Shown piece by piece: positions 2,840 to 20,988 of a stretch of DNA of 20,988 nt. The stretch comes from a virus (taxonomy: Duplodnaviria; Heunggongvirae; Uroviricota; Caudoviricetes), in the IMG/VR virus record IMGVR_UViG_2778261588_000006, positions 1 through 20,988 of that record; one strand, given 5' to 3'. The notes beneath the pieces were generated by a model. It did not search any database. It worked only from the letters and a program-made list of their open reading frames with translations, and was not told the origin of the DNA. Both the position numbers and the translations under genes were made by a program. Positions within the stretch are counted from its first letter, which is position 1. Each line of letters starts with the position of its first letter.

Positions 2840-3747
2840 TTCACCTCCTGCGGCGGTTCTGGTAGCGGCATCCAGTGTGTGACATTGCTAATCAGACCAT
2901 ATTCATTAGTTTGAGGATGGTTGCCGTTATCGTCTCCGTATTTAAGACTCTCCATAAAGCCATAATGCCTATCACCATTAACGCTCACAAAGCCGTAATA
3001 AGCAGGTATAACGCCGATCTCACACGTAACCAGTAAAGGAAAACTAGTTCTCCAATTTAGCTCGCCGATTACAGGCATTCGCTCACTACAGCTTATCCAG
3101 CCATCCGGAGTTACCGGATAGTTGCCCGATAGCGCATTACGCAATCGCTCCAGCTTCACGTATTCCTGAACCCTGTTTCCGTCGCATGCCTGAAGCCATT
3201 GCGCAGCCTTTTGCGCATCAGTGTGAAAGGCACAAGTGCGACCGTCATCAAATTGCATTTCGTAGAGGTCAGCAACTTGTTCAAACTGCGTATGTTGTGA
3301 CTTGTAAGTTTGGCTTACAGGTTCGGCACCATGAAGCATGGCGTCGCTCCGCTCTATGCCATCCAGCGCGATTCGCAGTGCCTGAATTGTGGTAGAGCTA
3401 TCGTTTGGGGCTATTCCATATCTCTCGAATACAGCTAAATGGTTGCGCATAATCTCAGGCGTAAGCTCTTTGTAAGCATAAGCAAGAGGCTCTGATGCAT
3501 TATCCGGCACAACCGACGCAGGCGCGGCAGCATAAACAGGAATAACGTCCGCTTGCTCTTTATTGCTTTCATCCGTTAAAGCCCAGAATAATTTCCCGGC
3601 CGGATGTTTGAAAATATAAGCAACTGGATCTGCTTCCAGCGATGCCAGCGCAATTCGTGCCAGTTCCATTTGTTCGCCACGGGTAAGCCCGTTTTCAAGC
3701 GTGGATTTAATGAACAATTCGATACGTTCTTTAGTGATAGCGCTCAT
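2836..3747 (-). CDS. DUF551-domain phage protein
   Basis: C-terminal WISCSERMP...THWMPLPEPP block typical of DUF551; start placed at MSAITK (3747) with AGGAG SD rather than the upstream in-frame ATG at 3789. Confidence 0.6.
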   Translation of the reverse strand: MSAITKERIELFIKSTLENGLTRGEQMELARIALASLEADPVAYIFKHPAGKLFWALTDESNKEQADVIPVYAAAPASVVPDNASEPLAYAYKELTPEIMRNHLAVFERYGIAPNDSSTTIQALRIALDGIERSDAMLHGAEPVSQTYKSQHTQFEQVADLYEMQFDDGRTCAFHTDAQKAAQWLQACDGNRVQEYVKLERLRNALSGNYPVTPDGWISCSERMPVIGELNWRTSFPLLVTCEIGVIPAYYGFVSVNGDRHYGFMESLKYGDDNGNHPQTNEYGLISNVTHWMPLPEPPQEVK

Positions 3748-5746: not shown

Positions 5747-6210
5747 TTGCTCCACCTCTTGCCAGTTTTTATGTTGCTTATAATTGATTGAGATACACCC
5801 ATGTCTTTTGCTATCTTGTACTGACTCTCTTTTTCAGAGAGTCTTTTCCTAATTTCTATAACCTGCCACTCTGTTAATTTTGCACCATGATGAGCATGAC
5901 CTTTCTTGGCTCCACGATGCCTTCCTTTTGCTATCTTGTCGTCCATGTTTTCTTGCGCGCTACCTAAAAAGAGATGTTCAGGATTAACGCAGCATGGGTT
6001 ATCGCATTTGTGGCAAACCATCTTCCCAGATGGAATGGGGGAGTGATAAAGCTCAAAAGCAACCCGATGAGAAAGCATTGTTACGCCAAAGGCTACAAAT
6101 TTTGTGTATCCTCCTTTGTTTTTTGAATAGGTAGACTCCCAGCAACCTGTTGTTTCATTAACTTTGTAGCTGGACTCGAATCTTTTAATAATTCCGTCCA
6201 AGTGAGACAT
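5743..6210 (-). CDS. HNH endonuclease (HNH_3-type, homing-endonuclease-like) with C-terminal HTH
   Basis: [18 protein letters not shown] motif, His/Lys-rich segment, C-terminal helix-turn-helix-like tail. Confidence 0.8.
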
Positions 6211-17257: not shown

Positions 17258-17442
17258 ACGCCACAATTCAAACGATACCAGAGCTTCTTATCCAGACACG
17301 AGGCAATCAGACCGAAGTGGCGAGGATGCTTTCCTGCGCAAGAGGAACAGTGCTCAAGTACAACCGAGACAGCAAAGGCGAGCGTCATGTAATAGTTAAC
17401 GGCGTCCTGATGGTCAAACAAGGAAAGAGGGGAAGACGATGA
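17254..17442 (+). CDS. ninH: NinH-like protein
   Basis: IPELLIQTRGNQTEVARMLSCARGTVLKY...VNGVLMV parallels lambda NinH. Confidence 0.7.
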   Translation: MNATIQTIPELLIQTRGNQTEVARMLSCARGTVLKYNRDSKGERHVIVNGVLMVKQGKRGRR

Positions 17443-17957
17443 GCATAAGAGAACTAAACCTCACCAAAGAGCAGCACGAGTGGCTGAATGGCTGGCTTGA
17501 ACTGTGGGGCGCATGGGTTTATTCAGGTCGACTGGAAAAGCGCATGAGCAGCGTAATAGCGAAGTTCATGGAGAGCGTAGAGCCGGGAAGAGTTATGACA
17601 AGGCCAATGTGTAATGATGATGATGGAATGTTGATTTCTCAGGTCGTCGATTCCGTCATGTGCATTGACAAGAAAGCCTTTGGCATCCTCCTCAGCTACT
17701 ACGCTCATGGTTCATCTAAGCGAGCAATTGCATCCTACTATCACGCGACTGCAAAGCCACGCAAGATGTGTGGACGTGGTGGCGAGGGATGGAGAAAACC
17801 TTCACTGGCAACCTGTAGAAACGAAATTGACGACATCCTGAAAGCGTCATTATTTGTTTTATACCAGCCAATGCAAAATGCTTTCAAAATGCGTAAACGT
17901 GTTGAGAAAGTTAAGCATGTTGCTGTTAAAAGCCTTGACATGCAATTAGCCATTTAG
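17439..17957 (+). CDS. Q: Late-gene antiterminator Q (QuuD / non-lambda Q family)
   Basis: Positioned between ninH and the lysis cassette; WGAW and RPMCNDDD motifs resemble QuuD-type Q as recalled; unlike lambda Q. Confidence 0.6.
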   Translation: MSIRELNLTKEQHEWLNGWLELWGAWVYSGRLEKRMSSVIAKFMESVEPGRVMTRPMCNDDDGMLISQVVDSVMCIDKKAFGILLSYYAHGSSKRAIASYYHATAKPRKMCGRGGEGWRKPSLATCRNEIDDILKASLFVLYQPMQNAFKMRKRVEKVKHVAVKSLDMQLAI

Positions 17958-17964
17958 CCATAAT
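17935..17964 (+). promoter_or_regulatory. Candidate late promoter PR' (-35 TTGACA 17935-17940; -10 CATAAT 17959-17964, 18-bp spacer)
   Basis: Consensus -35 and near-consensus -10 straddling the Q stop codon, where lambdoid late promoters lie. Confidence 0.35.
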
Positions 17965-17973
17965 TAGAAGGTA

Positions 17974-18017
17974 AGCTGCCGTTAGTGACTCTTAAGTTGC
18001 AACGGTGGCTTTTTTTG
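17974..18017 (+). terminator. Candidate tR'-like intrinsic terminator (stem 17974-17983 / 18001-18010, then T7 run)
   Basis: About 10-bp stem (two G-U pairs) with large loop followed by TTTTTTTGTTTG; about 35 nt downstream of the candidate PR' start. Confidence 0.35.
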
Positions 18018-18040
18018 TTTGCACAACAGGTAAGAGCATT

Positions 18041-18090
18041 GCGCGCCTGACGAGTCCATGAGGGACGAAACGCATTAGCGTCGCGCGGAG
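18041..18090 (+). ncRNA. Hammerhead self-cleaving ribozyme motif (type I topology)
   Basis: Core CUGACGA 18047-18053; stem II GUCC 18054-57 / GGAC 18063-66 (loop AUGAG, G10.1-C11.1 pair); GAA 18067-69; stem III ACGC 18070-73 / GCGU 18078-81 (loop AUUA, A15.1-U16.1 pair); cleavage triplet GUC ending at C 18082; stem I CGCGC 18042-46 / GCGCG 18083-87. Every invariant core position is satisfied. Confidence 0.6.
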
Positions 18091-18532
18091 TATCCCCAGC
18101 CGGGGAATAACTGGATACCAGGGGAGACAACCCTAAGCGCATTTACGAGTGTGTTTAGGGCGTGGGTCGGCAATGACTCCCTGTGCAGCCGACATCTGGC
18201 CCGGCAACATACAGTGCTCTTTCCGTTGTGCTGAATTAAGCGAATACCGGAAGCAGAACCGGATCACCAAATGCGTACAGGCGTCATCGCCGCCCAGCAA
18301 CAGCACAACCCAAACTGAGCCGTAGCCACTGGCTATCCTGAATTCATCAGTGATAGTTATGCTGCGGCCTTCTACACATGACCTTCGTGAAAGCGGGTGG
18401 CAAGAAGTTGCGCTAACAACCTCCTGCCGTTTTGCCCGTGCATATCGGTCACGAACAAATCTGATTACTAAACACAGTAGCCTGGATTTGTTCTATCAGT
18501 AATCGACCTTATTCCTAATTAAATAGAGCAAA

Positions 18533-18548
18533 TCCCCTTATTGGGGGT
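18533..18548 (+). promoter_or_regulatory. sdi-like stem-loop (CCCC-TTATT-GGGGG) upstream of the S dual start
   Basis: Hairpin immediately 5' of ATG-AAG-ATG, as in lambda where it sets the S107/S105 ratio. Confidence 0.55.
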
Positions 18549-18553
18549 AAGAC

Positions 18554-18877
18554 ATGAAGATGCCAGAAAAACATGACCTGTTGGCCGCCATTCTCGCGGC
18601 AAAGGAACAAGGCATCGGGGCAATCCTTGCGTTTGCAATGGCGTACCTTCGCGGCAGATATAATGGCGGTGCGTTTACAAAAACAGTAATCGACGCAACG
18701 ATGTGCGCCATTATCGCCTGGTTCATTCGTGACCTTCTCGACTTCGCCGGACTAAGTAGCAATCTCGCTTATATAACGAGCGTGTTCATCGGCTACATCG
18801 GCACTGACTCGATTGGTTCGCTTATCAAACGCTTCGCTGCTAAAAAAGCCGGAGTAGAAGATGGTGGAAATCAATAA
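18554..18877 (+). CDS. S: Holin S (class I, dual-start S107/S105)
   Basis: [39 protein letters not shown]... is essentially lambda S as recalled; Met1-Lys2-Met3 dual start. Confidence 0.95.
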
Positions 18878-19337
18878 TCAACGTAAGGCGTTCCTCGATA
18901 TGCTGGCGTGGTCAGAGGGAACTGATAACGGACGGCAGAAAACCAGAAATCATGGTTATGACGTCATTGTAGGCGGAGAGCTATTCACTGATTACTCAGA
19001 TCACCCTCGCAAACTTGTCACGCTAAACCCAAAACTCAAATCAACAGCAGCCGGTCGCTATCAGCTTCTTTCCCGTTGGTGGGATGCCTACCGCAAGCAG
19101 CTTGGCCTGAAAGACTTCTCTCCGAAAAGCCAGGACGCTGTTGCACTGCAGCAGATTAAAGAGCGTGGCGCTTTACCGATGATTGATCGTGGCGATATCC
19201 GTCAGGCTATCGATCGTTGCAGCAATATCTGGGCTTCATTACCCGGTGCAGGTTACGGTCAGTATGAACATAAAATCGGTGACCTGATTGCCCGGTTTAA
19301 AGAGGCTGGCGGGGTGGTAAATGAAGCTGAGCTATAA
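18861..19337 (+). CDS. R: Endolysin R (lytic transglycosylase)
   Basis: [39 protein letters not shown]... matches lambda R over most of its length; the C-terminal ~20 aa differ. Confidence 0.95.
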
Positions 19338-19713
19338 GCTGGTTATCGCTGCTTTCTTCGTGACTGTCATCGGTTCTTTCACATGGTCTGCCAGCCACTA
19401 CTACAGCAAATATCAGCACGAAAAGAAACGTGCTAATGAGGCTGTACGAAATGCTGAATCAGCAACTGCCATTACCAATAACGTCCTGCAATCACTACAA
19501 ATCGTCAATACAGTTCTGGAGGCTAACCAGTATGCAAAACAGCAGATCGCACTGGAGTCACAGAGAACCCAGGAAGATATCAAAGGGGCTGTTGCGGATG
19601 ATGATTGTGCTGTACGTCCTGTGCCTGCTGCCGCTGCTGACAGGTTGCGGAAGTACGCGAACAGTTTACGTGCCGGTTCCGGCGGTACCGCTGCCAACAA
19701 GCCTGACCACTGA
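19321..19713 (+). CDS. Rz: Rz-like inner-membrane spanin (i-spanin)
   Basis: N-terminal TM (LVIAAFFVTVIGSF), coiled-coil body, directly after R with 17-nt overlap; not lambda Rz sequence. Confidence 0.6.
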   Translation: MKLSYKLVIAAFFVTVIGSFTWSASHYYSKYQHEKKRANEAVRNAESATAITNNVLQSLQIVNTVLEANQYAKQQIALESQRTQEDIKGAVADDDCAVRPVPAAAADRLRKYANSLRAGSGGTAANKPDH

Positions 19714-19855
19714 AACGCCCCAGCCAGTCATTCCCGACCCGCTGACCTATGGGGCCAGTCTGGATCTGAATGTGAGCCTGCTTTCGGCGCTGGGCCAGTG
19801 CAACATCGACAAGGCCAGTATCAGGAAGATAGAAACGTCACGCAACTCACAGTAG
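19598..19855 (+). CDS. Rz1: Rz1-like outer-membrane lipoprotein spanin (o-spanin), overlapped architecture
   Basis: +1-frame ORF inside Rz with lipobox LLTGC and Pro-rich mature region; extends 142 nt past the Rz stop. Confidence 0.6.
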   Translation: MMIVLYVLCLLPLLTGCGSTRTVYVPVPAVPLPTSLTTETPQPVIPDPLTYGASLDLNVSLLSALGQCNIDKASIRKIETSRNSQ

Positions 19856-20080
19856 CCATTACAAAGCTCATCTGCGGGTGGGCTTGATAATGAAACCGGA
19901 ATTTATTCTGGGCAACCAGTTACGGCAGTACCACGAAACAACCCAAGCCAGTAAGTGGGGAAATAACACTGGCAGCCACTGAAAGATGAACCTCCTGCCT
20001 TATGGCAAAAAAGATTCTTTGTGGTGGCGGACTGATGGAAAGACATCCTAATCAAGCAACCACTCTACAGGGTCATAATT

Positions 20081-20461
20081 ATGAACGACCAGCAAATCGA
20101 AAAAGAAATCGTTGAGAAAGGCAAAACTGCACCGCGAATCACCCCGCAGCACATCGAAGACGTGATTAAAAGCGAGCATTACTTTACTGCTTATGATGGA
20201 CGAAATGGTGCCATTTCCAGCAACGAATATTGTGGCAGGGAAAAACCAGAAGAAGGCGATCGTGATTTATCACCATTGAAGTTGCTCACTTTCTGCGTAC
20301 TGGTGCTGAAGAATGGCTTCACCGTCACCGGAGAGAGTGCCTGTGCAAGCCCGGAAAACTTTGATGTAGAAATTGGTCGGAAGATTGCCCGGCAGAATGC
20401 TGTAAACAAAATCTGGATGCTCGAAGGTTACTTGCTGAAGCAGAAGCTAAGCGAACAGTAG
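20081..20461 (+). CDS. Hypothetical phage protein (126 aa), possibly Gp49-like
   Basis: Isolated ORF after the lysis cassette, flanked on both sides by a repeated linker motif; family guess weak. Confidence 0.5.
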   Translation: MNDQQIEKEIVEKGKTAPRITPQHIEDVIKSEHYFTAYDGRNGAISSNEYCGREKPEEGDRDLSPLKLLTFCVLVLKNGFTVTGESACASPENFDVEIGRKIARQNAVNKIWMLEGYLLKQKLSEQ

Positions 20462-20564
20462 TTATTACAAAAGCCATTCCCTACAGAGTGGCTTTGATAA
20501 TGGCTTATACCCTACACGGGATAACTTAACTGATATCCCTTTTAACGGATAAACGGAGCCAACA

Positions 20565-20807
20565 ATGGCAGAGATTATTCCCATGACTGAAGAACAGAAA
20601 TTCAAGTTAGAAATTTACCGACTGCTATCTAAGAACAATTCAGCGGCAGAGGAAGCTTTTGCATTCATTGGTGCTGACCAACTGAAACTGGAATTGTTCA
20701 AGTTGCACTACAACGATGGCGGTGCAAATCCAGACTTCACATCTCGCACTATCGAAGCGGTGCGTAAATCGAAGGAAGCGTTAGACCTGTTCACTACCGG
20801 AGCATGA
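20565..20807 (+). CDS. Hypothetical small helical protein (80 aa)
   Basis: ORF with GGAG-containing leader; stop overlaps the next start. Confidence 0.45.
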   Translation: MAEIIPMTEEQKFKLEIYRLLSKNNSAAEEAFAFIGADQLKLELFKLHYNDGGANPDFTSRTIEAVRKSKEALDLFTTGA

Positions 20808-20808
20808 T

Positions 20809-20988
20809 GTGAGCCGCGTAATCAATTTGGGTAAGGAGAAGAAATTCCCAATTACTCAAGAGCTATACGAGCGGCTGGAAAGCGTCATCCATGATTACGA
20901 TGGCGAAATCAGTTTATGCGAGGCGATTGGCACACTCGAATTGCTGAAGCAGTCACTGATTGAAGGCGCGAAAGAGTCATCAACCTGA
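20809..20988 (+). CDS. Hypothetical small protein (59 aa, GTG start), ends at last base of window
   Basis: GTG 1 nt after the upstream TGA with GGAG 6 nt upstream; under the track length cutoff. Confidence 0.3.
   Translation: MSRVINLGKEKKFPITQELYERLESVIHDYDGEISLCEAIGTLELLKQSLIEGAKESST

What the first reader, a model, noticed from the sequence alone, without database searches (positions are those of the whole stretch)
19850..20503. Repeated linker motif flanking the gene inserted after Rz1
The sequences just after the Rz1 stop (19850-19892) and just after the 126-aa gene stop (20456-20503) share CAGTAG, ATTACAAA(A)G and GGCTT(T)GATAATG blocks separated by a hairpin-capable spacer. Repeated boundary sequences on both sides of one gene suggest cassette acquisition by recombination at conserved linkers, or a shared regulatory element.
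Basis: seen in the sequence. Interest (0 to 1): 0.4.

Follow-up and report, generated by a model that had tools for sequence, protein, structure and literature searches.

The report
RNase III-type hairpins bounding phage genes
The two look-alike stretches are copies of a roughly 40-base RNA hairpin that sits just after genes between the lysis and DNA-packaging genes of many enterobacterial phages. It closely resembles the sites where the host enzyme RNase III cuts phage T7 messages, and it also marks joints where these phages have exchanged genes.

Summary
Window 19857-19892 and 20460-20505 are two copies of one structured element: a lower stem (C)ATTA/TAAT(G), a CA/GA internal loop, a 9-10 bp upper stem and a 4-6 nt loop.

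I found 145 instances (91 distinct sequences) in viral contigs and named phages, including Sf6, HK620, P22, N7, phi80, phiP27, ST64B and ZF40. Compensatory changes are abundant. G.U outnumbers A.C 128 to 8, so the structure forms in the sense strand. Of the 145 instances, 139 are co-oriented with the neighbouring genes. Most start about 2 nt after a stop codon. In the complete genomes scanned, every hit lies between the lysis and terminase genes. The element is unannotated and absent from Rfam.

A covariance model built only from these elements returned five phage T7 RNase III processing hairpins as its top five hits in T7. The reciprocal T7-built model picked the two window copies as its best hits on the coding strand of the window. 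They carry the canonical RNase III distal box.

Best reading: intercistronic RNase III processing/stabiliser hairpins, inferred rather than shown. Near-identical hairpins lie between unrelated flanks, so they also act as mosaic joints.

The parts
19598..19855 (+). Rz1-like o-spanin gene; its stop codon TAG is at 19853-19855, 1-2 nt before the hairpin
   Evidence: Pfam LysC/Rz1-like PF23793, E 1.9e-18; sequence
19857..19892 (+). Hairpin copy 1. Lower stem 19857-19861 (CATTA) with 19888-19892 (TAATG). Internal loop CA 19862-19863 / GA 19886-19887. Upper stem 19864-19872 with 19877-19885 (9 bp, two U.G pairs). Loop TGCG 19873-19876. By analogy with T7 R1 the predicted RNase III cut is near 19888/19889 (inferred).
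   Evidence: RNAfold -17.6 kcal/mol, z -3.8. Family model R1 52.5 bits. T7-site model R2 18.9 bits, best hit in the window. 14-nt core TCATCTGCGGGTGG identical to T7 R1.
19893..20045 (+). Conserved segment without a convincing gene (30-aa and 37-aa ORFs). From about 19932 it is homologous to the body of the small RNA P22G reported in P22. In N7 and HK620 it is bounded by a hairpin on each side.
   Evidence: Sequence comparison with P22, N7 and HK620. P22G sequence in PMC13397905. No Pfam hit for the 30-aa ORF.
20081..20461 (+). 126-aa gene of the N4 Gp49 / Sf6 gene 66 family; stop codon TAG at 20459-20461 overlaps the foot of hairpin copy 2
   Evidence: Pfam PF13876, E 1.8e-34. 93.5% identical DNA in Sf6 genes 66-68.
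20460..20505 (+). Hairpin copy 2. Extended lower stem 20460-20467 with 20498-20505 (core ATTA 20464-20467 / TAAT 20498-20501). Internal loop CA 20468-20469 / GA 20496-20497. Upper stem 20470-20479 with 20486-20495 (10 bp, A-U then U.G at pairs 7-8 from the base). Loop CCTACA 20480-20485. By analogy with T7 R1.1 the predicted cut is near 20498/20499 (inferred).
   Evidence: RNAfold -20.6 kcal/mol, z -5.5. R1 54.1 bits. R2 17.9 bits. Inverted repeat I4.
20506..20564 (+). Conserved leader of the DUF2560 gene, with two further small hairpins. Together with copy 2 (20464-20553) it is 96-99% identical in many E. coli prophages that have different neighbouring genes.
   Evidence: Megablast hits H68-H78; L002 4001-4090; fold
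20565..20807 (+). DUF2560 gene (P22 orf80 / Sf6 gene 67 / HK620 hkbM), the first gene downstream of copy 2
   Evidence: Pfam PF10834, E 5.5e-37

Best explanation
Each copy is an intercistronic RNA hairpin in the phage late transcript, of the same kind as the RNase III processing signals of the phage T7 early region.

**Proposed mechanism (inferred).**
- Late transcription from the Q-antiterminated promoter reads through the lysis genes and the accessory genes behind them.
- The hairpin forms 1-2 nt after the stop codon of the upstream gene.
- Host RNase III binds the 9-10 bp upper stem, which carries the canonical A-U / U.G distal box.
- Because of the CA/GA internal loop, RNase III cuts only the 3' side, near GAU|AAUG.
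- The upstream message then ends in a protective 3' hairpin, and the downstream message starts a few bases before its ribosome-binding site.
- Each accessory gene therefore becomes its own mRNA unit: gene plus 3' hairpin.

**Evolutionary consequence.** The same 35-45 nt hairpin is shared by otherwise unrelated phages. It also acts as a short island of homology at which genes in the lysis-to-terminase interval are swapped, gained and lost.

**Shown here:** the structure, its strand, its position, its spread, its place at mosaic joints, and its resemblance to T7 sites.

**Inferred:** cleavage by RNase III, the cut position, the effect on mRNA stability, and recombination at the hairpin as a mechanism.
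For: **Structure**
- On 90 distinct copies, 96.6% of cells pair.
- 12 of 16 pairs change on both sides (250 cells), and 0 of 500 shuffles reach this.
- The slid controls give 35-47% pairing.
- Copies found by the model alone add lower-stem covariation: ATTA/TAAT to ATCA/TGAT and ATTG/CAAT.

**Sense-strand RNA**
- Under a strand-symmetric filter, G.T outnumbers A.C 128 to 8.
- The antisense strand scores and folds far worse.
- 139 of 145 copies are co-oriented with the neighbouring genes.

**Position**
- About half of the copies start within 8 nt of the stop codon of an upstream ORF; the most common distance is 2 nt.
- Others start just after a canonical terminator.
- A ribosome-binding site often follows within 10-25 nt.

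**Location in the genome**
- In the window, the complete Sf6, phi80 and ST64B genomes, and partial N7, HK620 and P22 loci, every strong hit lies between the spanin genes and the terminase genes. Lambda has none.
- Downstream genes are often small terminase subunits (10 PHROG families) or HNH endonucleases.

**Link to T7**
- Model R1 was built only from the temperate-phage copies.
- Over all of T7 with filters off, its top five hits are 5861-5884, 3115-3134, 866-887, 1441-1465 and 36830-36853.
- These are the intergenic hairpins before genes 1.1, 1, 0.3, 0.5 and 18.5.
- The R1.3 hairpin also scores in the early-region run.
- Model R2, built only from six T7 sites, gives the two window copies as the two best hits on the coding strand of the window.
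- The sequences align end to end with gaps only in the loop.

**RNase III rules (PMC1540722)**
- At least 11 bp are needed between the cut and the loop.
- The distal box UA/UG needs a stringent U.G pair.
- An internal loop limits cutting to one strand and leaves a protective 3' hairpin.
- In the family the equivalent pairs are A-U in 57 of 90 copies and U.G in 66 of 90.
- Both window copies have A-U pairs at the proximal-box positions.

**T7 background**

**Experimental hint**
- In P22 the reported 204-nt small RNA P22G ends inside the homologous hairpin, at ...GGUUAUUGCAGAGGCCAU (PMC13397905; P22 sequence).

**Host range**
- A 25-base pattern hit 16 of 185,579 species genomes; 15 are Enterobacterales.
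Against: - No cleavage data exist for any copy.
- The T7 hits score only 9.4-14 bits, no higher than random hits in lambda (top 11.3 bits). The argument rests on where the hits fall, not on their scores.
- The T7-built model also picks terminator-like hairpins: Sf6 24783-24825 and a terminator annotated in phi80. It is therefore not specific.
- The whole helix is about 15-19 pairs including the internal loop, short of the two turns typical of RNase III substrates.
- 25 of 90 family members, including the phi80 copy, have G-C or C-G at the position equivalent to proximal-box position 2. That substitution inhibits binding in the minimal substrate.
- The near-invariant lower stem and CA/GA loop are more conserved than RNase III is known to need. 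Part of this comes from my search patterns, but it could point to another factor.
- The called 3' end of P22G lies in the 5' arm of the hairpin, not at the predicted cut.
- The T7 site names and cut coordinates were recalled from Dunn and Studier (1983).
Confidence: 0.6

Rival explanations
1. A structured RNA hairpin that works without RNase III. It could be a passive 3' stabiliser or translational insulator between cistrons, like REP sequences. Or it could be the binding site of another host or phage factor that reads the conserved lower stem and CA/GA loop.
For: All the structural, strand and position evidence fits equally well. The CA/GA loop and the ATTA/TAAT stem are nearly invariant even in copies found by the model alone, which is more than RNase III is known to require. 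28% of copies carry a proximal-box antideterminant. The P22G RNA ends at the hairpin, which a stabiliser would also produce.
Against: It does not explain why a model of the family picks out the T7 RNase III sites specifically. It also does not explain why the canonical U.G distal-box pair is kept in 66 of 90 copies. No candidate protein is shared by the very different phages that carry the element.
Confidence: 0.2
2. Weak or conditional intrinsic transcription terminators that bracket accessory genes. The Q-modified polymerase reads through them during lytic growth, and they stop stray transcription in the lysogen.
For: The stem is G+C-rich. Copies of the ATTACAAA type are followed by TTTGATAAT or TTGATAAT. 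Copy-1-type hairpins resemble a canonical terminator found next to the element in O157 prophages. The T7-site model also hits annotated terminators. P22G ends at the hairpin.
Against: No T-run follows the stem, and the terminator scan flags neither copy. The commoner ATTACAG...CGATAATG type has no U directly after the stem. In about ten contexts a canonical terminator lies 3-8 nt upstream of the element, which would make a second terminator redundant. The similar T7 hairpins are read through by E. coli polymerase, since the 7-kb early precursor spans all five.
Confidence: 0.08
3. A DNA-level element: a recombination site or a miniature mobile palindrome that inserts after genes, with no role in RNA.
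For: Near-identical hairpins sit between unrelated flanks, and homology ends at the hairpin edges. The element is confined to a hyper-variable genome interval.
Against: G.T pairs outnumber A.C 16 to 1, so only one strand folds well. That argues against a cruciform or a symmetric duplex site. Stems vary widely through compensatory change, unlike recently spread mobile copies. A search with 120 joined left-plus-right flanks found no precise empty site in 3 Mb of related loci. No transposase or dedicated recombinase co-occurs.
Confidence: 0.07
4. Chance similarity between two intergenic stretches.
For: Raw pairwise similarity is modest: score 30 against a best unrelated score of 25 in the window.
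Against: 0 of 5000 shuffles reach the observed score. The model gives E about 1e-11 for both copies. There are 145 further instances with covariation.
Confidence: 0.01

Closest known systems
RNase III processing signals of phage T7 (R0.3, R0.5, R1, R1.1, R1.3, R18.5)
   Same: - Intercistronic position, in the sense orientation, starting at or a few bases after the upstream stop codon.
- The same layout: a 9-10 bp upper stem, a small internal loop, an A/U-rich lower stem and a 3-6 nt loop.
- The same CAUUC/GAGUG or CAUC/GGUG top of the stem, with U.G wobbles (the canonical distal box).
- Copy 1 shares 14 consecutive bases with R1.
- Models built from either set find the other.
   Different: - Host genome: temperate P22-like, lambda-like, HK97-like and Mu-like-tailed phages rather than T7.
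- Operon: the late operon (lysis to terminase interval) rather than the early operon.
- A different and much more uniform lower stem and internal loop: (C)AUUA-CA / GA-UAAU(G) against T7's variable ACUC-A / UAUGA.
- A shorter lower stem.
- A large subfamily with G-C/C-G at a proximal-box position where T7 sites have A-U.
- Cleavage is untested.
PeSL (promoter-early stem-loop) cassettes of T4-like phages (PMC2839356, PMC4122927)
   Same: A short conserved motif containing a stem-loop, repeated between small accessory genes in hyper-variable genome regions. It is found at insertion/deletion/replacement joints and is thought to mediate modular shuffling.
   Different: PeSLs are composite promoter plus terminator units with TTGACA-N17-TATAAT-like hexamers. 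The element here has no such promoter, lacks a terminator tail, and is read as an RNA processing hairpin.
Boundary sequences (bsq) of lambdoid phages, as annotated in the Sf6 record after the HK620 study
   Same: Short conserved sequences at module borders in mosaic lambdoid genomes, proposed as sites of recombination.
   Different: None of the bsq2-bsq7 features annotated in Sf6 lies at the two hairpins (37836-37870 and 38500-38538); bsq7 is inside the Rz gene. The bsq are not described as covarying hairpins. The original paper was not available to read.
REP/BIME extragenic palindromes of enterobacteria
   Same: Roughly 35-nt imperfect palindromes after genes in operons that can protect upstream mRNA from 3' exonucleases (from general knowledge).
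   Different: No sequence similarity. The GTAG seen before both window copies is the stop codon, not a conserved tetranucleotide. The element is phage-restricted and confined to one genome interval.

Membership tests
T7-type RNase III processing signal | Hairpin with an upper stem of about one helical turn, an internal loop at its base and a lower stem | tested here: met
   9-10 bp upper stem, 2x2 CA/GA loop, 4-8 bp lower stem. The T7 sites folded the same way.
T7-type RNase III processing signal | Detectable sequence-plus-structure similarity to the T7 sites | tested here: met
   The top five R1 hits in T7 are five of the RNase III hairpins. The two best R2 hits on the coding strand of the window are the two copies. 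Individual scores are weak (9-19 bits) and R2 also hits terminators.
T7-type RNase III processing signal | Canonical distal box (U-A/A-U pair next to a 5'U.G3' wobble) at pairs 8-9 from the cut (PMC1540722) | tested here: met
   Copy 2 has A-U then U.G at the equivalent pairs. Copy 1 has the T7 R1 arrangement. In the family, A-U occurs in 57 of 90 copies and U.G in 66 of 90.
T7-type RNase III processing signal | No G-C/C-G at proximal-box position 2 (PMC1540722) | tested here: met
   Both window copies have A-U there. Across the family 25 of 90 copies have G-C/C-G, so for that subfamily the feature is not met.
T7-type RNase III processing signal | About two helical turns of (quasi-)continuous helix | tested here: inconclusive
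   15-19 pairs counting the internal loop and the extended lower stem. The minimal substrate needs 11 bp between the cut and the loop, and that is met.
T7-type RNase III processing signal | Site-specific cleavage by RNase III in vitro and rnc-dependent ends in vivo | not testable with these tools
   Indirect only: the P22G small RNA ends inside the P22 copy (PMC13397905).
T7-type RNase III processing signal | Lies between cistrons of a polycistronic phage transcript, in the sense orientation | tested here: met
   139 of 145 copies are co-oriented with the neighbouring genes; stop-codon and RBS distances are.
Intrinsic (Rho-independent) terminator | G+C-rich hairpin followed directly by a T/U-run | tested here: not met
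   The scan of 17400-20988 lists six terminator-like sites, none at either copy. The tails are GATAATG.
PeSL of T4-like phages | Sigma-70-like promoter (two hexamers, about 17-nt spacer) joined to a terminator stem-loop | tested here: not met
   No promoter-like site at either copy. ATTACA and GATAAT are 22-26 nt apart.
PeSL of T4-like phages | Located at indel/replacement joints among accessory genes | tested here: met
   and the comparisons.
Lambdoid boundary sequences (bsq) | Coincides with one of the boundary sequences annotated in Sf6/HK620 | tested here: not met
   The Sf6 record lists bsq2-bsq7 and none lies at 37836-37870 or 38500-38538.
REP / RAYT-associated palindromes | Conserved GTAG tetranucleotide at the foot of the palindrome | tested here: not met
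   The bases before ATTACA vary (GCC, GGC, GTC, GAC...). GTAG appears only where a TAG stop codon happens to follow a G.
Any Rfam family | Match to a curated covariance model | tested here: not met
   cmscan of 19600-20988 at E up to 10 gave only a sub-threshold Proteo-phage-1 hit at 19942-19977, outside both copies.

The most novel reading that the evidence does not exclude
The hairpin is a portable 'gene tag' shared by unrelated temperate phages of Enterobacterales. A gene plus its 3' RNase III hairpin forms a self-contained expression cassette. The hairpin frees the cassette from its neighbours at the RNA level. At the DNA level it supplies the short homology at which phage single-strand-annealing recombinases swap cassettes. 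The lysis-to-terminase interval would then work as a cassette array, loosely comparable to T4 PeSLs or integron attC sites. The same hairpins would also release small RNAs such as P22G from the late transcript.
Probability: 0.3. Interest if true: 0.75.

Novelty: new member of a known kind. Interest (0 to 1): 0.6.

Why it matters
- **A testable function for unannotated sequence.** The element gives a concrete, testable function to a conserved stretch present in classic phages (P22, Sf6, HK620, phi80) and in many prophages of Escherichia, Salmonella, Klebsiella, Serratia, Citrobacter and Yersinia.
- **A new place for RNase III in phage biology.** If RNase III cuts here, late-operon messages of temperate phages are processed into gene-sized units as T7 early messages are. 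That would affect how lysis genes, accessory ('moron') genes and terminase genes are expressed relative to one another.
- **An origin for phage small RNAs.** The processing could explain how small RNAs such as P22G arise.
- **A physical basis for mosaicism.** The sharing of one hairpin by unrelated phages offers a basis for the sharp mosaic joints in this interval.
- **An evolutionary link.** It suggests a sequence relationship between virulent T7-like phages and temperate phages.
- **A candidate new RNA family.** There are 91 distinct members with strong covariation.

Tried and rejected
- **Promoter and terminator readings.** The consensus scan found nothing at either copy.
- **Rfam.** No family matched.
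- **Clark/Casjens boundary sequences.** Not at this spot in the Sf6 record.
- **REP-like GTAG foot.** It is only the stop codon.
- **Translational bypass, readthrough or coupling through the ATG of GATAATG.** The ORFs opened by that ATG are short and unrelated (30 aa and 9 aa in the window). The distance and frame from the upstream stop codon vary.
- **IHF site, nut/put sites, integron attC, IS200/IS605-type ends.** These were considered from memory only. No matching core sequences or partner enzymes were seen.
- **CRISPR-repeat mimicry.** Only a GATAA resemblance; not pursued.
- **Independent mobility of the hairpin.** Joined flanks of 120 contexts found no precise empty site.
- **K-12 prophages DLP12 and Qin, and lambda.** No copy was found, so K-12 data sets cannot be used.
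- **Prophage small RNAs AgvB, AsxR and Pas.** They lie elsewhere, near Q and the holin gene, and are unrelated.
- **The P22 pid locus paper.** It maps a promoter and terminator on the opposite strand and says nothing about the hairpin.
- **Literature searches for the motif or for RNase III sites in P22-like late operons.** Nothing was found.
- **T7 RNase III sites in the records.** Neither T7 record shown by the tool annotates them. A paper listing them was not found.
Full report
**What is in the window**

The 3' part of the window is the late region of a P22-like (Sf6/HK620-like) phage. The genes are:
- holin (18554-18877)
- lysozyme (18861-19337)
- Rz (19321-19713)
- Rz1 (19598-19855)
- a 126-aa gene of the N4 Gp49 / Sf6 gene 66 family (20081-20461)
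- a DUF2560 gene (20565-20807)
- the start of an Sf6 gene 68 homologue

These assignments rest, and on similarity to Sf6, HK620, P22 and others.

They share ACAGTAG..ATTACAAA (88%) and GTGG(G)CTT(T)GATAATG (87%) around a spacer that can form a hairpin.

**Is it more than chance?**

- The local alignment score is 30 against 11 +/- 2.1 for shuffles (0 of 5000 reach it).
- Copy 2 is the best match to copy 1 in the whole window, although only just: 30 against 25.
- Both copies fold as sense-strand RNA hairpins: -17.6 and -20.6 kcal/mol, z -3.8 and -5.5.
- The antisense strand folds much less well.
- The decisive evidence comes from other genomes.

**Recurrence**

Megablast of 19320-20988 showed homology breakpoints clustering at the start of copy 1 and at copy 2. 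It also showed the 41 nt of copy 1, or copy 2 plus 50 nt, occurring alone at 96-99% identity in E. coli prophages with different neighbouring genes.

Three such loci showed the same architecture with different stem sequences that still pair. The loci were phage N7, an O157:H7 prophage and a clinical isolate. One example is ATTGCAGAGGCCATTC-AAT-GAGTGGTCTCGACAATG.

Three pattern scans of IMG/VR followed by a stem filter gave 145 instances, 91 distinct sequences and about 127 distinct contexts. All have the same layout: lower stem (C)ATTA/TAAT(G), internal loop CA/GA, a 9-10 bp upper stem and a 3-6 nt loop. Pattern matches split cleanly into chance matches (0-5 Watson-Crick pairs of 9) and real ones (7-9 pairs).

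BLAST of one variant found the element in phi80, mEp390, cdtI, phiP27, ST64B, Fels-1, ZF40, Klebsiella prophages and an Edwardsiella phage. It falls in an unannotated gap in nearly all of these records. A 25-base version of the motif occurs in 16 of 185,579 species genomes, 15 of them Enterobacterales.

**Structure and strand**

- On 90 distinct copies, 96.6% of cells pair.
- 12 of 16 pairs show changes on both sides (250 cells).
- No shuffle reaches this, and sliding the partner by 1-3 columns drops pairing to 35-47%.
- One pair outside my filter (columns 3-45) is paired in 73% of copies, with six pair types.
- Copies found only by the covariance model show lower-stem covariation (ATTA/TAAT to ATCA/TGAT or ATTG/CAAT), while the CA/GA loop stays.
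- With a filter that treats both strands alike, G.T outnumbers A.C 128 to 8.
- 139 of 145 copies point the same way as the surrounding genes.

The selected structure is therefore in the sense single strand, that is, the mRNA.

**Position**

About half of the copies start within 8 nt of the stop codon of an upstream ORF, most often 2 nt. Others follow a canonical terminator by a few bases. A ribosome-binding site often follows within 10-25 nt.

The upstream genes fall into 61 unrelated clusters: spanins, Rha, KilA-like, gp49 and many unknowns. The downstream genes fall into 56 clusters. Many of the downstream genes are small terminase subunits (10 PHROG families) or HNH endonucleases.

In the window, the complete Sf6, phi80 and ST64B genomes, and partial N7, HK620 and P22 loci, every strong model hit lies between the spanin genes and the terminase genes. 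There are one or two per genome. Lambda and the K-12 prophages DLP12 and Qin have none.

**What it is not**

- It matches no Rfam family.
- It is not flagged as a promoter or terminator.
- ATTACA and GATAAT are 22-26 nt apart, and no T-run follows the stem.
- It is not one of the boundary sequences annotated in Sf6.

**The T7 connection**

Folding the intergenic regions of the T7 early operon showed hairpins of the same design and partly the same sequence.
- Before gene 1: CTTACAGGTCATCTGCGGGTGGCCTGAATAGG. Copy 1: ATTACAAAGCTCATCTGCGGGTGGGCTTGATAATG. The two share a 14-nt identical core.
- Before gene 1.1: AAGGTCATTC-GCAA-GAGTGGCCTTTATGAT. Family consensus: GAAGCCATTC-nnn-GAGTGGCTTCGATAATG.

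Model R1 was built only from temperate-phage copies and run without filters over all 39,937 bp of T7. Its top five hits were 5861-5884, 3115-3134, 866-887, 1441-1465 and 36830-36853. These are the hairpins before genes 1.1, 1, 0.3, 0.5 and 18.5. The hairpin before gene 1.3 also scored in the early-region run. They correspond to RNase III sites R1.1, R1, R0.3, R0.5, R18.5 and R1.3. I recalled the names and cut coordinates from Dunn and Studier (1983). The gene positions come from the record.

The scores (9.4-14 bits) are no better than random hits in lambda, whose top hit is 11.3 bits. The weight lies in five of five top hits falling on about 0.4% of the search space.

The reciprocal model R2 was built from the six T7 hairpins. 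Its two best hits on the coding strand of the window are copy 1 (18.9 bits) and copy 2 (17.9 bits). It also finds the Sf6, N7 and other copies, and it picks up some terminator-like hairpins. T7 sites and temperate-phage copies align over their full length, with gaps only in the loop.

**RNase III rules**

T7 early RNA is a ~7000-nt precursor cut by host RNase III at five sites (PMC4858673, PMC3867540). According to Pertzev and Nicholson (PMC1540722):
- At least 11 bp are needed between the cut and the loop.
- The distal box is optimally a U-A pair next to a U.G pair, and the U.G requirement is stringent.
- G-C/C-G at proximal-box position 2 blocks binding.
- Internal loops restrict cutting to one strand, leaving a 3' hairpin that protects against exonucleases.

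Mapping the R1.1 numbering onto the family gives these results:
- The distal-box pairs are A-U in 57 of 90 copies and U.G in 66 of 90.
- Both window copies have A-U at the proximal-box positions.
- A subfamily of 25 of 90 copies, including phi80, has G-C/C-G at position 2, which counts against efficient cleavage of those members.

By analogy with R1 and R1.1, the cuts would fall three bases past the upper stem, near 19888/19889 and 20498/20499. This is inference.

**An experimental hint**

A 2026 survey of P22 small RNAs lists a 204-nt species, P22G, whose sequence ends ...GACAUCGGUUAUUGCAGAGGCCAU (PMC13397905). That end lies inside the 5' arm of the P22 copy of the hairpin. Its body is homologous to window ~19932-20045.

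So a stable RNA ending at this hairpin accumulates in infected cells. This fits a 3'-end-forming or protecting hairpin. It does not distinguish processing from termination, and the called end is not at the predicted cut.

**Mosaic joints**

Among 923 pairs of distinct contexts with hairpins at least 90% alike:
- 738 share neither flank.
- 114 share only the right flank.
- 36 share only the left flank.
- 35 share both.

Homology usually stops 0-5 nt from the hairpin.

When only the left flank is shared, the hairpin is also conserved in 36 of 47 pairs. When only the right flank is shared, it is conserved in 114 of 252 pairs. The hairpin therefore travels somewhat more with the upstream gene, as a 3' tag.

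For the window itself, the comparison is as follows:
- N7, HK620 and P22 have ...GAAAGACATC-GGTT-[ATTGCAGAGGCC hairpin]-GCTTATACCC.
- The window and Sf6 have ...GAAAGACATC-[gp49 gene]-CAGTAGTT-[ATTACAAAAGCC hairpin]-GCTTATACCC.
- Some contigs join a copy-1-type hairpin directly to GCTTATACCC.

So the right joint of the gp49 insertion is at the hairpin. The left joint is not at copy 1. Loss or gain of everything between the two hairpins has also occurred. I found no precise hairpin-only empty site.

**Verdict**

The most likely function is a T7-type RNase III processing/stabiliser hairpin in the late mRNA (confidence about 0.6). It doubles as a short conserved linker at which accessory genes are exchanged.

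The rivals are:
- an RNase III-independent stabiliser or factor-binding hairpin (0.2)
- a weak terminator (0.08)
- a purely DNA-level site (0.07)

It is a new member of a known kind: phage intercistronic RNase III signals. What is new is the setting (temperate-phage late operons), the scale and conservation of the family, the association with mosaic joints, and the lack of any prior annotation.

Noticed in passing
window 20464-20553 (also L002 4001-4090): Copy 2 plus the next 50 nt (GCTTATACCCTACACGGGATAACTTAACTGATATCCCTTTTAACGGATAAA) is 96-99% identical in many E. coli prophages that share neither neighbouring gene, and it is unannotated there. The segments TTATACCC / GGGATAA / TATCCC / GGATAA can pair in alternative ways, and a 9-codon ORF (20501-20530) overlaps the first two, which is reminiscent of a leader or attenuator.
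   Followed up: partly
window 19893-20045; P22 locus L006 about 2510-2632: A conserved stretch without a convincing gene (30-aa and 37-aa ORFs) is shared with P22, N7 and HK620. It corresponds to the body of the small RNA P22G reported in PMC13397905. In N7 and HK620 it is bounded by a hairpin on each side, so it could be released as a roughly 190-nt RNA. A weak sub-threshold Rfam hit (Proteo-phage-1, 16.8 bits against a threshold of 42) lies at 19942-19977.
   Followed up: partly
many IMG/VR loci, e.g. L120 about 584-610, L311 about 3348-3375, L303, L338: A second hairpin type follows the element directly in many phages: GTTATCCCC-nnnn-GGGGATAA(A). Its 3' half resembles the 3' part of the type I-E CRISPR repeat as I recall it (GGGGATAAACCG). 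This is an unverified lead only.
   Followed up: no
L002 3968-3998; L282, L076, L327: In O157:H7 and related prophages a canonical terminator (AGCCTCGCATTCGCGGGGCTTTTTTATTG) lies 3-5 nt upstream of the element. It is itself similar in sequence to copy-1-type hairpins, which hints that the hairpins and terminators may be evolutionarily related.
   Followed up: no
L004 (Sf6) 24783-24825, minus strand: The best hit of the T7-site model in Sf6 is a hairpin followed by UUUAUUUUUG, between gene 35 (ral) and gene 34 in the early-left operon. It is either a terminator or another RNase III-type site.
   Followed up: no
L350 (T7) 3113 and 36836: The T7 record places the minor E. coli promoters C and E within or next to the hairpins before genes 1 and 18.5 that the family model hits.
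   Followed up: no
L366 2848-2883: The only non-Enterobacterales genome with the 25-base motif is a contig labelled Sphingomonas sp. This could be contamination or a real transfer; I did not examine it.
   Followed up: no
L006 (P22) 2650-2727: The annotated P22 orf25 starts at an ATG inside the loop of the hairpin (2633-2668), so it may not be a real gene.
   Followed up: no
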